DNA of 46,204 nucleotides from positions 1 through 46,204 of IMG/VR virus record IMGVR_UViG_3300017700_000376. One strand, given 5' to 3'. The DNA is from a virus (Duplodnaviria > Caudoviricetes). The notes beneath the pieces are model-generated. The model worked only from the letters and a program-made list of their open reading frames with translations, made no database searches and was not told the DNA's origin. The translations under genes and the position numbers were made by a program. Shown one piece after another: positions 12,213 through 20,547 of this stretch. Positions within the stretch are counted from its first letter, which is position 1. Each line of letters begins with the position of its first letter.

Positions 12213-13754
12213 TCAGAGTGCCATTTCATCATAGTCCGTTTTGCCCACCCGTGTCGAGCCGCCAGCACCAGCGTTGGCGTACTTGCTCCGATCGCGTCGC
12301 TGCATCTTGTGGACGAAGGTAAGCATCAGAGCGTCCGCGCGGTCGGGACTGGGCAAGCCGCGATCCTTCATGTCGCGCTTGCTTTCCATCTGCATAACCG
12401 TCTCGCCGTTGCCCTTCAACTCGTAGCGGATGGTGGTCAGTTGCTTGAACAGTTCGCCGTCCAGTTCGGGCAGACATAGCCGGGTCTGGATGCTCTCGCG
12501 CATGGCCGACCACATCTCGGCGCGGACGTTCAGGAACGCCTTGGGCTGCGACGACGCGGCGCCAGGGTGAACCTCGATCACGTTGTAGCGCCAGGACCGC
12601 ATGATATCGATCACACCGACGCCCGGCCCGACGCTCTCAATGATCGTCACGTCCGGCTTGTATCGAGAGGCCAGTTCCGCAGCGATCGTCGCGATGGCCA
12701 CGGTATCGAGCCCCTTGCGCGTCGTCCATGGTATCGATCGGCAGTCGATCCCCTGACGGAACGCGAACACCGTCTCGTCGTCGCCGAACCGGGCGACGTC
12801 GATCGCCATCACCAGCGCCGCGCCGCTGTCGTGGAATAGCTCGCGCTGCTGCGCCGCGGTGACGTCGGACGGCGAGATGAACCCGTCGTACGCCTTGACC
12901 GGGAAGCTGCCGAGCACGCGGATGCGGATGTAGTCGTTGTCGGTGCCGCCGTTCGCCCGGATGAGATCGGCGATATGCGCCTTGTTAGTGTGGCTGACTT
13001 CGCGGCTGTCGACGCGCTTTTTCCACCACCTGTTCTCGGGGTCGTTGAGGTGGGTGTCGGCGAACGGGCCGTCCGGCTGCGTCGGGTTGCCGAAGACGAA
13101 GAAGAACGGTTCGCCGTCAGTGAACGCGCCCTCGGCAACCTCCCACAGCTTCCGATCAATACCCGACGCCTCGTCGAAGACGATGAACACGGCGCCGGCT
13201 TCGTTATGCAGACCCGCCCACGCTTCGGTGTTCTCGGCGGCGACGGTCAGCGCGTCGACCTTGTAGTTCTTCTGTTTATCCTCGGGGTAGGCAGCGTAGT
13301 AGAGCGACGCTCCGGTCCATGTGAACCAGTGCTTGTTGATCGCCATGTTGTACCACTTGCCTAGCTCGGGCCACGTCTTGGTCTGAAGCTGGTTGGCGGT
13401 GTTGGCGGTGACGACGCCTCGGGTGTCCATGCGCGTCGACATGATCCAGAGGATGATCCATGCCACGAGCGCCGACTTACCGACGCCGTGGCCTGACGCC
13501 ACGGTCGAGCGGAATACGAGGTAGTCGAGGCCGATCTGTTTACGCCACGCGTTCTCGATCGCATGTGCCGAGACGGCGTGCAGCAATTCGGCCTGCCACG
13601 GCTCTGGTCCAGTCTTCCTGGCCAGGCTGGTGCCGGGCACACCCCACGGGAACGCCGCCATCACGAACCCGTAGGCGTCGTAGCGAAACCGCGCGATCAG
13701 TTCGTTCAGCCGCTTCTCGACGTCCGGTGCGATCTTGGCAACCTGCTGCGCCAT
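12213..13754 (-). CDS. terL: Terminase large subunit
   Basis: Walker A SGHGVGKS, Walker B FIVFDEAS, coupling motif FGNPT, nuclease motifs IDVARFGDD and SPDRADAL. Confidence 0.95.
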   Translation of the reverse strand: MAQQVAKIAPDVEKRLNELIARFRYDAYGFVMAAFPWGVPGTSLARKTGPEPWQAELLHAVSAHAIENAWRKQIGLDYLVFRSTVASGHGVGKSALVAWIILWIMSTRMDTRGVVTANTANQLQTKTWPELGKWYNMAINKHWFTWTGASLYYAAYPEDKQKNYKVDALTVAAENTEAWAGLHNEAGAVFIVFDEASGIDRKLWEVAEGAFTDGEPFFFVFGNPTQPDGPFADTHLNDPENRWWKKRVDSREVSHTNKAHIADLIRANGGTDNDYIRIRVLGSFPVKAYDGFISPSDVTAAQQRELFHDSGAALVMAIDVARFGDDETVFAFRQGIDCRSIPWTTRKGLDTVAIATIAAELASRYKPDVTIIESVGPGVGVIDIMRSWRYNVIEVHPGAASSQPKAFLNVRAEMWSAMRESIQTRLCLPELDGELFKQLTTIRYELKGNGETVMQMESKRDMKDRGLPSPDRADALMLTFVHKMQRRDRSKYANAGAGGSTRVGKTDYDEMAL

Positions 13755-13770
13755 CTGTATCCTCGACCCA
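13735..13770 (+). promoter_or_regulatory. Putative promoter TTGGCA-N17-TATCCT with +1 at the terS ATG (leaderless)
   Basis: -35 at 13735-40, -10 at 13758-63, A of ATG 7 nt later, no SD. Confidence 0.5.
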
Positions 13771-14333
13771 TGGCAAAAGAGATCGCTACCCTAGCATCTA
13801 CGCTTCCGTCTGTCCCGATGGCCCTCGCGCTGGCCGTCATCCAAGACGTGGCGACCGGCAAGACCGTGTCGCGAGCCTGCCGCGATCGAGCCCTCGCCGT
13901 ACCGGCGTTCCGCGCTCTGATCAAGAAGGAGCCGGATCTTCAGCCGATGCTCGACGAGGCGCTGAAGTCTCGAGACGACGCCCTGAACGACATGCTGATC
14001 AACATCGATCAGGAACACAGCGACAGCAAAATGGCCGCGGTGGTGTCGAAGAATATCCAGTGGGTGTTGGAGCGCAGCGACCCGGCGCGCTTCGCGGCCA
14101 GGGTCACGCTGCAGACCGACAACGAGGTCAGCCGGAACCTGGCAGAAGCTCTCAACAAGGCGATGGAGCGGATACCCGCGCTGCCGCAGCGCCTGCAGCA
14201 GATCACCGACGTCACGTTCGAGCCGGTGCCCGACAAAGTTGCGGCGCCGTTGGGGGCGGCGCCGCTAGGTGGGGAGGCGGCACGCTCGGAGGACGCGTCG
14301 CTTGCCGAACTTAGACGGCTCGGCTTCCTGTAG
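13770..14333 (+). CDS. Terminase small subunit-like protein (Sf6 gp1-like), inverted relative to terL
   Basis: N-terminal HTH (GKTVSRACRD..VPAFRALIKK), oligomerisation helices, KNIQWVLERSDPARF. Adjacent to terL. Confidence 0.65.
   Translation: MAKEIATLASTLPSVPMALALAVIQDVATGKTVSRACRDRALAVPAFRALIKKEPDLQPMLDEALKSRDDALNDMLINIDQEHSDSKMAAVVSKNIQWVLERSDPARFAARVTLQTDNEVSRNLAEALNKAMERIPALPQRLQQITDVTFEPVPDKVAAPLGAAPLGGEAARSEDASLAELRRLGFL
13788..13816 (-). promoter_or_regulatory. Candidate terL/late-operon promoter GGGACA-N17-TAGGGT (TGn-extended) inside terS
   Basis: The only promoter-like element I found between the 14335-14380 terminator and terL. Confidence 0.4.
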
Positions 14334-14334
14334 C

Positions 14335-14380
14335 AACAAAAGAAACGGGCCGCCGGGAGAGGAAGCTACCGGCGGCCCGT
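14335..14380 (-). terminator. Intrinsic terminator, 12-bp perfect stem with a 12-nt anti-SD-like loop
   Basis: Minus strand ACGGGCCGCCGG-TAGCTTCCTCTC-CCGGCGGCCCGT-TTCTTTTGTT, between convergent genes. Confidence 0.85.
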
Positions 14381-14399
14381 CACCAAACTGCAGGCGACG

Positions 14400-14939
14400 T
14401 TACTCCTGCGGCTTGGTCCCCTCGTCTCCCACAACGTTGCCAGCGGCGTACCCGCCGAGCCGCTTGCGCTCGATGTGCTCACGCACGTCGCGCTGGTCCT
14501 GGCTCTCGGGCACACCGGGCGCCACGCCCGGCTGGATCATCGTCGCATGGGCCGGGAACTGGTCGATGGTCGGCAGGTTCTCGACCCGGTCCGTCGTCAC
14601 GCCGATCAGGCCCCGCGGCACCGGCGCGGTGTGCCGCACCTCCATCAGCCGGTCCACGTTGTCGAGCGCTTCGTTGCGCTCGTGCGTAAGAGTGGCGATC
14701 GTGGCTTTCGCGGCGCCCAGTTCCGACCGAAGCATGCCGTTGTGCTCGCGGGACTTGCGCCAACACTCGTCCATCTTGGCGTTGTCCGCCTCGAACACCG
14801 ACAGCTTCGTCAGCACTTCGTCGAGCTTGGCCTGAAGGGCGGTGTTGTCGTCGAGCGCTCGCTGCAGTTCCGCGGTGAGGGGTGCCGGCGTCTCGTCCAC
14901 CGGCGCAGAATCGTTCTGTTTCGTCGTCTTGTTGGCCAT
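14400..14939 (-). CDS. Hypothetical coiled-coil protein
   Basis: 179 aa with heptad-like N-half, SD GAGGAG, own promoter. Confidence 0.75.
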   Translation of the reverse strand: MANKTTKQNDSAPVDETPAPLTAELQRALDDNTALQAKLDEVLTKLSVFEADNAKMDECWRKSREHNGMLRSELGAAKATIATLTHERNEALDNVDRLMEVRHTAPVPRGLIGVTTDRVENLPTIDQFPAHATMIQPGVAPGVPESQDQRDVREHIERKRLGGYAAGNVVGDEGTKPQE

Positions 14940-14966: not shown

Positions 14967-14996
14967 ACAATGGGCTCAATGACGTGGTGGCGTCAA
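14967..14996 (-). promoter_or_regulatory. Putative promoter TTGACG-N18-CATTGT
   Basis: -35 overlaps the upstream TGA. Same -10 and spacing as the capsid promoter. Confidence 0.6.
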
Positions 14997-15340: not shown

Positions 15341-15492
15341 CACCGCTTCTCCCACACGTCGGCCGTCACGTTCGCGCTCTCGTCGAGGAACGCCACCCGC
15401 TCGCCCTTCGGCCGCATCTTGTAGGCCCACGCGCGCATCTCGATCGCCAGGGCCGTGTGCGAAACGGCGGACTTCAACAGTGTCTTGATCAT
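15340..15492 (-). CDS. Hypothetical protein (50 aa)
   Basis: GAGAGGAACAA-ATG start, coupled to its neighbours. Confidence 0.55.
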   Translation of the reverse strand: MIKTLLKSAVSHTALAIEMRAWAYKMRPKGERVAFLDESANVTADVWEKR

Positions 15493-15707
15493 TTGTTCCT
15501 CTCGTCTCTCATGTGCTGGTAGAATTTCTCCGCGCTGGCGTAGTGCATAACGCGAGTAATAACCGTCCCGGCGGCCAGGGGCATACCACCCGGCAAGCTG
15601 GCGAAGTGCATGAACTCGAAGTCCGTCATCAGACAGACCGTTCCTTTGTGCTCGAACCGCCACATCTCTTTGGGCTCGGGCAACATTATGACCGGACCGA
15701 TGCCCAT
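15489..15707 (-). CDS. Hypothetical protein
   Basis: MGIGPVIMLPEPKEMW..., overlapping stop/start chain. Confidence 0.55.
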   Translation of the reverse strand: MGIGPVIMLPEPKEMWRFEHKGTVCLMTDFEFMHFASLPGGMPLAAGTVITRVMHYASAEKFYQHMRDERNK

Positions 15708-16466: not shown

Positions 16467-16487
16467 GGCTTCCTCTCTGTTACGCAG

Positions 16488-17080: not shown

Positions 17081-17092
17081 CGTCTTCCTCTC

Positions 17093-17135
17093 TGTTACGC
17101 AGCGCATGTTACGCACACGCCGGCGGCGCCGTCAA
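17093..17135 (-). promoter_or_regulatory. Promoter TTGACG-N18-TAACAT with tandem GCGTAACA repeats
   Basis: -35 at 17130-35, repeats at 17093-100 and 17107-14. Confidence 0.7.
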
Positions 17136-17413: not shown

Positions 17414-17430
17414 GGCACTTCCTCTCGTGT

Positions 17431-17472
17431 TGTTACGCAGCGGATGTTACGCGCACATAGGGGTTGCGTCAA
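17431..17472 (-). promoter_or_regulatory. Promoter TTGACG-N17-TAACAT with tandem GCGTAACA repeats
   Basis: -35 at 17467-72, repeats at 17431-38 and 17445-52. Confidence 0.72.
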
Positions 17473-18914: not shown

Positions 18915-18988
18915 CACTGAACACTAGGCGCCCGCCGCGACAGGGGGCCTAGAATTGAGTGCCAGTGTTCAACAGAGAGGGAAAGACC

Positions 18989-19261
18989 ATGCTGTACCGC
19001 ATCACACACCGAAAAGGACCCGCGCTAGCGCCCGTCGTTGTAGAAAAGGCCCGTGTAGACGCCGCGTGCCTCGCGGGCGCCCGTGCGGTTTACGCGGCCG
19101 CCGACGCGCAATCTTTGCGAGACAGACCCGTCGCGCACGCTGCGGTGCGCGACGCCAAGGCGTTCGGCGGCCGGGGCTGTCTGACAAACATTCGTGTAGG
19201 ATACCACACCATCACTATAGAAGACGTGACCTTGACGCATGGGCGCGGCCACCCTTGGTAG
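18989..19261 (+). CDS. Hypothetical early protein
   Basis: AACAGAGAGGGAAAGACC-ATG. Confidence 0.7.
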   Translation: MLYRITHRKGPALAPVVVEKARVDAACLAGARAVYAAADAQSLRDRPVAHAAVRDAKAFGGRGCLTNIRVGYHTITIEDVTLTHGRGHPW

Positions 19262-19352
19262 CGCGGCAAGCTCTGACCTTTGCGCCCGCTGTGTACGTGG
19301 CGGGCGACTAGGCCAGCGCATTGCTGGATCTGCAACAGAGAGGAACCGACAC

Positions 19353-19736: not shown

Positions 19737-19823
19737 GATGCCCTGACCTTCACTGCCTCGCGGCCGGTGTGTCGCGAGGCAGGACAGGCCAGCGCATCCC
19801 GCGACTGGATCGAGAGGAACACA

Positions 19824-19971: not shown

Positions 19972-20331
19972 GTGCGCTTCGCCCTGCTAGACCGCGAGAA
20001 CGTCGCGCCACCACGTCGCTTTGCCACAAAGGCAGCGGCCGGCGCGGCCCTCCTGGCGATCGCCGTCAAGCGATACGTCGTGAAGAGAAAACCTTTGCCC
20101 TCGCTGGTCTACGAAAACGCGGGCAAACGCATCATCCCGTTCGGGCTGTACGTCCATCGTGAAGGGCGCGGCCTTGAGCTTGTCGGCTCGTTCTACGCGC
20201 GCAACCGCGAGATAGCGTTGAAGTATCTCCTGGCCGCAGCGGCGGGCCGGGACTGGCCGGACACACCGGCCGCCATGTTCCATGTCGTCGAATTGACGGC
20301 AGCGGAACAACGCCGCTACAATGCTGCGTAA
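19972..20331 (+). CDS. Hypothetical early protein
   Basis: 119-aa ORF filling the operon. Start uncertain. Confidence 0.55.
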   Translation: MRFALLDRENVAPPRRFATKAAAGAALLAIAVKRYVVKRKPLPSLVYENAGKRIIPFGLYVHREGRGLELVGSFYARNREIALKYLLAAAAGRDWPDTPAAMFHVVELTAAEQRRYNAA

Positions 20332-20333
20332 CA
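20293..20333 (+). promoter_or_regulatory. Promoter TTGACG-N18-TACAAT followed by GCGTAACA
   Basis: -35 at 20293-98, -10 at 20317-22, motif at 20326-33. Confidence 0.7.
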
Positions 20334-20349
20334 CAGAGGAAGGAAAACC

Positions 20350-20529: not shown

Positions 20530-20547
20530 CAGAGAGGAAGGAAAACC

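What the first reader, a model, noticed from the sequence alone, without database searches (positions are those of the whole stretch)
14335..14380. Candidate phage anti-Shine-Dalgarno RNA: terminator loop complementary to the shared RBS of many small phage genes
Seen: the minus-strand terminator has a perfect 12-bp stem and an unusually long loop, UAGCUUCCUCUC. Its complement GAGAGGAA(G) precedes the starts at 15492, 16466 (10-nt match GAGAGGAAGC), 17080, 17413 and 20548 (9 nt), 19353 and 19824 (8 nt), with variants at 18989 and 20350. Virion genes use ordinary SDs instead (AGGAG, AGGGG, GGAAGG). Established: loop-exposed CU-rich anti-SD seeds are how alphaproteobacterial AbcR and cuckoo (CCUCCUCCC) sRNAs and S. 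aureus RNAIII repress targets, and 3' UTR-derived sRNAs exist. Inference: a late-expressed 3' UTR RNA shuts off a whole early-gene regulon tagged by a common address sequence. I do not know of a described phage system like this.
Basis: partly seen in the sequence, partly recalled or inferred. Interest (0 to 1): 0.82.

Follow-up and report, generated by a model that had tools for sequence, protein, structure and literature searches.

The report
Phage terminator loop mirroring early-gene tag
At the end of a small-gene cluster this uncultured phage has a predicted transcription-stop hairpin whose loop is the exact mirror of a private ribosome-binding tag on eight of its small genes, so the RNA may damp those genes together, although more distant relatives keep the hairpin with other loops and no transcript has been seen.

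Summary
The hairpin has a 12-bp stem (14345-14380), loop UAGCUUCCUCUC and a U-tract. The loop matches 8 of 21 small-gene starts by at least 8 nt and 0 of 33 other starts. Chance per loop is about 0.0003-0.003, and the tag is private to this lineage.

'Late RNA' is not supported: the hairpin ends the leftward small-gene (inferred early) unit, and its last gene has its own sigma70-like promoter. Co-variation could not be shown. Five more distant relatives keep a terminator here with other loops; L014 lacks both tag and loop. The nearest relative keeps the pairing bases, but an insertion appears to close part of the loop. The tag is also a good SD for a CCUUUCU-type 16S tail.

In cluster K mycobacteriophages, the lone reversed start-associated sequence sits in an open hairpin loop in 4 of 11 phages, in Adephagia in the gap where late transcription starts. 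That parallel is real but patchy.

Best reading (0.5): a terminator whose loop doubles as an anti-tag feedback seed. Main rival (0.35): ordinary terminator, chance match. Earlier scan notes report this pattern in other phage genomes (unchecked).

The parts
14345..14380 (-). Predicted intrinsic terminator hairpin: 12-bp stem, 12-nt loop (14357-14368) complementary to the start tag
   Evidence: of 4 strict terminator-like hairpins in the window it is the only one outside my gene calls
14335..14344 (-). U-tract of the terminator
14382..14417 (-). Second hairpin around the stop codon of the 14939 gene; a hairpin is predicted at this position in L006, L013 and L014, with different sequence
14415..14423 (-). 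Invariant 9-mer GAGGGGACC, in 4 of 4 aligned phages; past the stop codon in L014; not followed by a start codon; role unknown
14400..14939 (-). 179-aa ORF of no known family, last gene of the leftward cluster; the hairpin is its 3' UTR
14967..14996 (-). sigma70-like promoter candidate TTGACG-N18-CATTGT before the 14939 gene (L014: TTGACC-N17-CATCCT); lacks the GCGTAAC repeats
   Evidence: read by eye; not listed by the scan
13770..14333 (+). Sf6-type small terminase gene, converging on the hairpin and head-to-head with TerL
   Evidence: PF20901
12213..13754 (-). Large terminase, first gene of the minus-strand virion operon
15496..15503 (-). Tag before start 15492 (8-nt match)
16468..16485 (-). 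GCGTAACA leader plus tag before start 16466 (10-nt match)
17084..17135 (-). Full cassette: TTGACG-N18-TAACAT promoter, two GCGTAAC repeats, tag before start 17080
17418..17472 (-). Full cassette before start 17413
18975..18982 (+). Tag variant before start 18989 (6-nt match)
19338..19345 (+). Tag before start 19353
19812..19819 (+). Tag before start 19824
20293..20342 (+). Promoter TTGACG-N18-TACAAT, GCGTAAC leader and AGAGGAAG tag before start 20350
20532..20540 (+). Tag before start 20548 (9-nt match)

Best explanation
The hairpin is the predicted intrinsic terminator of the leftward small-gene unit, and its loop, the exact complement of this phage's private start tag, likely doubles as an anti-RBS seed that would damp translation of the tagged genes. 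Shown: hairpin, U-tract, tag positions, the promoter-leader-tag cassette, and the tag's restriction to the two small-gene clusters. Inferred: host sigma70 polymerase reads the cassette promoters and the promoter before gene 14939 early, and transcripts end at this hairpin. Inferred: the 3' end piece (the 9-mer, second hairpin and terminator, about 90 nt), or the mRNA 3' end itself, builds up and pairs with tagged leaders. Four tags lie on the same leftward unit and four on rightward transcripts, so the effect would be negative feedback that grows with early RNA, not a dedicated late switch. The loop would be a lineage-specific addition to an older terminator module.
For: Chance per loop 3e-4 to 3e-3; 0 of 173 other terminator loops hold TCCTC. 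The tag precedes 7 ATGs per 46 kb here, against 0.05 and 0.48 in two sets of related loci. Predicted net binding after opening both RNAs is -5.5 to -13.8 kcal/mol at the 8 tagged starts, and the duplex is stronger than the 16S-tail duplex at all 8. In the predicted duplexes the 16S tail pairs with the tag only up to GGA, while the loop also pairs with the following A (8 of 8) and G (5 of 8). L014 keeps the cassette promoters but has ordinary AGGAG(G) sites and a GAAA loop, so tag and anti-loop are absent together. Parallel tested here: in 4 of 11 cluster K mycobacteriophages the reversed SAS lies in a loop predicted 92-99% unpaired, with stem letters that differ between phages while the fold is kept; in Adephagia late transcription starts in that gap (PMC11373665 section 19).
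Against: 0 of 5 homologous terminators (L006, L013, L014, L021, L098; 12 loci examined) have a CU-rich loop; their loops are 4-6 nt. In X2 a base inserted behind 14367 would, by eye (not folded), let GAG/CUC close a CUUC tetraloop over part of the seed. X2 differs at three places in the 36-nt hairpin, so ten unchanged bases are weak evidence. The tag pairs with a CCUUUCU-type 16S tail at -9.9 to -13.0 kcal/mol, so it needs no other reason to exist. With G-U pairs the loop also binds untagged starts (16191 net -9.9; late start 36888 duplex -15.1 but net -2.8). 13 of 21 small-gene starts lack the tag. In cluster K, 7 of 11 phages keep SAS copies without a reversed copy in the region fetched. A crude detector gave one chance-like hit (L136, antisense to a coding end) among 26 other tagged loci.
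Confidence: 0.5

Rival explanations
1. Ordinary terminator and coincidence. The tag is a strong SD carried in a mobile promoter-leader cassette. The 'loop' is a CUUC-type apex plus the decayed arm of a once longer stem, and it happens to mirror the tag.
For: The tag pairs 7-8 bp with the CCUUUCU tail read from 3 of 4 proteobacterial genomes, and AGAAAGG SDs in the window and in L014 fit such a host. Relatives close this stem with 4-6-nt loops. The nearest relative appears to have a more closed apex. X2 homology breaks at or next to tags and start codons (17084, 17410, 20352), as expected for cassette shuffling (PeSLs, PMC2839356 abstract). A scan of many windows will surface 1e-3 coincidences.
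Against: Needs a 3e-4 to 3e-3 event at the one intergenic strict terminator. Does not explain the tag's GGAA(G) end. Does not account for the same geometry in cluster K1 phages.
Confidence: 0.35
2. One reading: the hairpin RNA is made or persists late, for example from the 14996 promoter that lacks the GCGTAAC repeats, or as the terminated leader of an antiterminated late operon, and it shuts off the early regulon. This is a timing variant within the best explanation.
For: The hairpin lies on the virion-gene strand, about 580 nt upstream of TerL, with only the antisense of TerS between. In Adephagia the analogous loop is in the gap where late transcription starts. The 14996 promoter candidate lacks the repeats found in the cassette promoters.
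Against: No late promoter or antiterminator gene was identified. The upstream promoters are all sigma70-like. The U-tract separates the hairpin from the late operon.
Confidence: 0.15
3. A tag copy was captured into the hairpin apex at DNA level by the recombination that spreads the cassette, and has no RNA function.
For: Cassette breakpoints in X2. The L006 terminator apex carries TGTGCGTAAC, which matches the cassette's promoter repeat.
Against: Only 9-10 nt match, short for recombination (own knowledge). The L006 match can be a GUAA-type loop plus stem by chance.
Confidence: 0.07
4. The functional strand is the plus strand: the TerS 3' run-through shows the tag itself in a loop, as a decoy for a tag-binding protein or as a sponge for the anti-tag RNA.
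For: TerS converges on the hairpin and has no U-tract of its own, so run-through would be fully antisense. Pope 2011 left open that SAS bind a phage or host RNA or protein.
Against: No U-tract, so no defined 3' end. The loop reads GAGGA, not the ANGGA motif of CsrA/RsmA (motif recalled). No RNA-binding protein was identified among 57 plus 22 ORFs scanned.
Confidence: 0.07

Closest known systems
Start-associated sequences (SAS/ESAS) of cluster K mycobacteriophages (PMC3203893, passages; PMC11373665, passages and section 19)
   Same: Asymmetric repeat at the RBS of non-structural genes, linked to sigma-type promoter cassettes, with a single copy not at a start. In 4 of 11 phages tested that copy is the open loop of a hairpin on the sense strand.
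   Different: Different sequence and unrelated phages. The cluster K loop is in the gap where late transcription starts and was not seen with a U-tract; here it is a terminator after a small gene. The passages read do not mention the hairpin or an antisense role.
OppZ and CarZ, autoregulatory 3' UTR-derived sRNAs of Vibrio cholerae (PMC7398697, abstract)
   Same: The 3' end of an operon pairs with its own transcript to block translation: negative feedback.
   Different: Host sRNAs cut out by RNase E that act on their own operon. Here the target would be a shared tag on two divergent gene clusters; processing and Hfq dependence untested.
c4 antisense RNA of phages P1/P7 (PMC12197685, passages)
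   Same: Phage RNA whose loop-placed sequences pair near a phage RBS and block translation.
   Different: c4 controls the antirepressor operon in immunity. No Rfam match in this window, and no integrase or repressor was identified here.
Cuckoo RNAs (PMC4615179, abstract); AbcR and RNAIII (recalled; AbcR seen only in a search listing)
   Same: CU-rich anti-SD motif in a hairpin loop.
   Different: Cuckoo has 2-4 adjacent hairpins, each with CCUCCUCCC. Here only one loop is CU-rich and its sequence differs.
PeSL regulatory cassettes of T4-type phages (PMC2839356, abstract)
   Same: Repeated sigma70-like promoter cassettes in regions of small non-essential genes, with gene swaps at the cassette.
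   Different: PeSLs include a stem-loop terminator; these cassettes have GCGTAAC repeats and an RBS tag instead.

Membership tests
Intrinsic terminator | GC-rich stem followed by a U-tract, after a stop codon | tested here: met
   same position in 5 of 12 related loci
Intrinsic terminator | Transcripts end at the U-tract | not testable with these tools
   no RNA holder listed
SAS-like start tag | Asymmetric repeat a few bases before starts of non-structural genes, rare elsewhere | tested here: met
   8 of 21 versus 0 of 33 starts; private to the lineage
Cluster K SAS (membership) | 13-bp SAS consensus with ESAS inverted repeats | tested here: not met
   different motif; upstream repeats are direct GCGTAAC repeats
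Cuckoo RNA | 2-4 adjacent hairpins, each loop CCUCCUCCC | tested here: not met
   one CU-rich loop with another sequence; no Rfam hit
c4 / Rfam antisense families | Match to the Rfam model | tested here: not met
   0 matches at gathering score
Anti-SD trans-acting sRNA (works like) | Accessible seed that pairs over target RBSs | tested here: met
   opening cost 1.8 kcal/mol, net -5.5 to -13.8 at 8 starts, predicted only
Anti-SD trans-acting sRNA (works like) | Seed conserved or co-varying with targets | tested here: inconclusive
   kept in the nearest relative; absent in 5 of 5 distant terminators; L014 lacks both tag and loop; no case of a different tag with a matching loop
3' UTR-derived autoregulatory sRNA (OppZ/CarZ-like) | Stable processed 3' fragment that represses its own transcript | not testable with these tools
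   geometry fits (four tags upstream on the same strand); no RNA data

The most novel reading that the evidence does not exclude
Phages repeatedly evolve a private RBS tag on their non-structural genes together with a hairpin RNA, at the early/late junction, whose loop is its complement: a self-encoded RNA switch for a whole gene class. This window is one instance and the reversed SAS of cluster K1 mycobacteriophages another, which would give SAS, unexplained since 2011, a function testable in Adephagia.
Probability: 0.4. Interest if true: 0.85.

Novelty: new variant of a known kind. Interest (0 to 1): 0.55.

Why it matters
If true, a tailed phage controls a gene class after transcription with one short RNA and an address tag, without a repressor protein. 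I found no paper describing this in five searches of open-access text. The same geometry in Adephagia and Anaya makes the open question of SAS function directly testable in a cultured phage on M. smegmatis. This window is a weaker example, because co-variation could not be shown.

Tried and rejected
Rfam at gathering score: 0 matches. Pattern scan for the hairpin in viral contigs: 3 hits, all read as unrelated. Pattern scans for the cassette (14 hits; 51 hits) and for the 3' module (85 hits) gave no new relatives: no tblastx hit for the first set, two methyltransferase-only hits in the second, no TerS or TerL in the third except the known L006. A viral scan with the 21912 gene found nothing. 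Sequencing runs: no RNA holder listed; run X3 laid nothing on the hairpin; neither counts for or against expression. X1 is near-identical and may be the source, and L011 is the window itself; neither was counted. Tag letters in X2 were not displayed, so tag conservation there rests on alignment coverage only. The X2 hairpin was judged by eye, not folded. The general tag/anti-loop detector missed both known cluster K cases because of a stem bulge, so it gives no frequency for the class; its one new hit, L136, was rejected as antisense to a coding end with no U-tract. The 14939 protein has no family. A CsrA/RsmA site was rejected by motif (recalled). The host is not identified; TerL matches in GTDB were at most 61% identical, mostly about 40%. 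A five-term search for divergent TerS/TerL found no paper, which is a weak search.

Full report
Setting. The window is a whole 46-kb virus record. Virion genes lie on the minus strand, replication genes on the plus strand, and two divergent clusters of small unknown genes lie between about 14400 and 23150. Early timing of these clusters is inferred from their sigma70-like promoters. The flagged hairpin lies between the last leftward small gene (14939-14400) and a converging Sf6-type small terminase gene (13770-14333).

Observation. Stem, loop and U-tract are as described. GAGAGGAA occurs 8 times, 7 before starts and once in the loop. Counting AGAGGAAG too, 8 of 21 hand-curated small-gene starts carry an 8-10 nt complement of the loop, against 0 of 33 other starts. 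The tag is the 3' end of a cassette: TTGAC-N17/18-TAACAT, GCGTAAC repeats, then the tag. It is private: 7 per 46 kb before ATGs here, against 0.05 and 0.48 in two sets of related loci. A random 12-mer would match five or more starts with P=3e-4 to 3e-3. None of 173 terminator-like hairpins in 238 other loci has TCCTC in the loop; four duplicate loci were dropped first.

Feasibility. ViennaRNA closes two pairs inside the loop, but opening it costs only 1.8 kcal/mol. Net predicted binding at the 8 tagged starts is -5.5 to -13.8 kcal/mol. The same sites pair with a CCUUUCU-type 16S tail, read from 3 of 4 proteobacterial genomes, at -9.9 to -13.0, and AGAAAGG SDs in the window and in L014 fit such a host. 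The tag is therefore a good SD anyway. Its last A and G pair with the loop but not with the tail. G-U pairs let the loop bind some untagged starts too (16191, 36888).

Relatives. Of 12 distinct related loci with the TerS 3' end, 5 have a U-tailed hairpin within 12 nt of the TerS stop, with loops UAAC, GAAA, GAAA, CUAACA and GUAAAA; none is CU-rich. L014, the only one of the three at 52-58% TerS identity whose small-gene starts are visible, keeps the cassette promoters but uses AGGAG(G) sites, so it lacks both tag and anti-loop. That fits joint gain in this lineage but is not co-variation. The nearest relative (run X2, a 46,624-base contig) has one substitution and two insertions in the hairpin and none in the 10 tag-pairing bases. 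By eye, the insertion behind 14367 adds a pair that closes GAG/CUC around CUUC, while the change at 14355 bulges the stem below. Its homology to the window breaks at or beside tags and start codons, as in cassette shuffling (PMC2839356, abstract). Four aligned phages share an invariant GAGGGGACC and a second hairpin just upstream, so an older 3'-end module of about 90 nt is conserved with variable apices.

Timing. Four tags lie upstream on the same strand, and the last gene has its own promoter candidate, also seen in L014. I found no late promoter. An RNA made early that gives feedback, as with OppZ and CarZ (PMC7398697, abstract), fits better than a late switch. The hairpin does sit on the virion strand just ahead of TerL, so late persistence is not excluded.

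A parallel tested here. Pope et al. 2011 describe SAS repeats before non-structural genes of cluster K mycobacteriophages, with a single opposite-orientation copy not at a start (PMC3203893, passages). I fetched 11 such phages, nine of them as 4-9 kb stretches only. In 4 (Adephagia, Anaya, Peanam, LilPharaoh) the reversed copy is the unpaired loop of a long hairpin whose stem letters differ while the predicted fold is kept; I did not count the pairs with a tool. Of 10 aligned, Amohnition has a CU-rich variant and 5 have other apices, though all keep forward SAS copies. In Adephagia late transcription starts in this gap, and gp39 is listed with an Hfq-like fold (PMC11373665 section 19). The geometry recurs in an unrelated group but is patchy, as here. 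After that test I searched earlier scan notes: 34 findings match one word search and 7 another, several describing the same pattern and the cluster K link. They are unchecked and I do not count them as support, except for the cluster K point, which I tested myself.

Verdict. The terminator and the tag cassette are real. That the loop acts as an anti-tag seed is about even odds (0.5), against an ordinary terminator with a chance match (0.35). It is not a cuckoo, c4 or SAS member. If active it would work like a 3' UTR anti-SD sRNA aimed at the phage's own tag. Five searches of open-access text found no description of such a system; subscription papers and supplements were not seen.

Noticed in passing
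window 13735-13772; L006, L007, L009, L013, L014, L019-L022, L098: TerS and TerL are head-to-head (start codons 15 nt apart in the window) in 10 of 11 distinct loci that hold both. TerS appears leaderless from a sigma70-like promoter overlapping the TerL start (TTGGCA-N17-TATCCT; -10-like hexamers 6-7 nt before the ATG in several relatives). Late transcription of TerL must start within or run antisense through TerS.
   Followed up: partly
window 14415-14423; L006:5358, L013:1056, L014:3577: Invariant GAGGGGACC 5' of the double hairpin, single-copy in each sequence, non-coding in L014. SD-like without a start codon; it could be a 5' stabiliser or pair with the U-tract (predicted in the window and L014 folds).
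   Followed up: partly
L243:33683 (Adephagia), L244:34871 (Anaya), L245:3127, L246:3127: The reversed SAS of cluster K1 phages is an open hairpin loop in a conserved two-hairpin region behind a conserved promoter-like motif; not described in the passages read.
   Followed up: yes
L006 and L013, second hairpin: Both loops carry the same GACGCCAUCC, complementary to GAUGGC(G) start contexts such as their TerL starts; absent in the window and L014.
   Followed up: no
window 16485, 17100-17114, 17438-17452, 20326, 21871, 27324, 35308: GCGTAAC repeats over the -10 and +1 of the cassette promoters, kept in L014; candidate operator for an unidentified phage regulator.
   Followed up: partly
L007:12881, 14041, 14488: Three copies of a repeat ending in a UUCG-type hairpin in a related phage's small-gene region, PeSL-like.
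   Followed up: no
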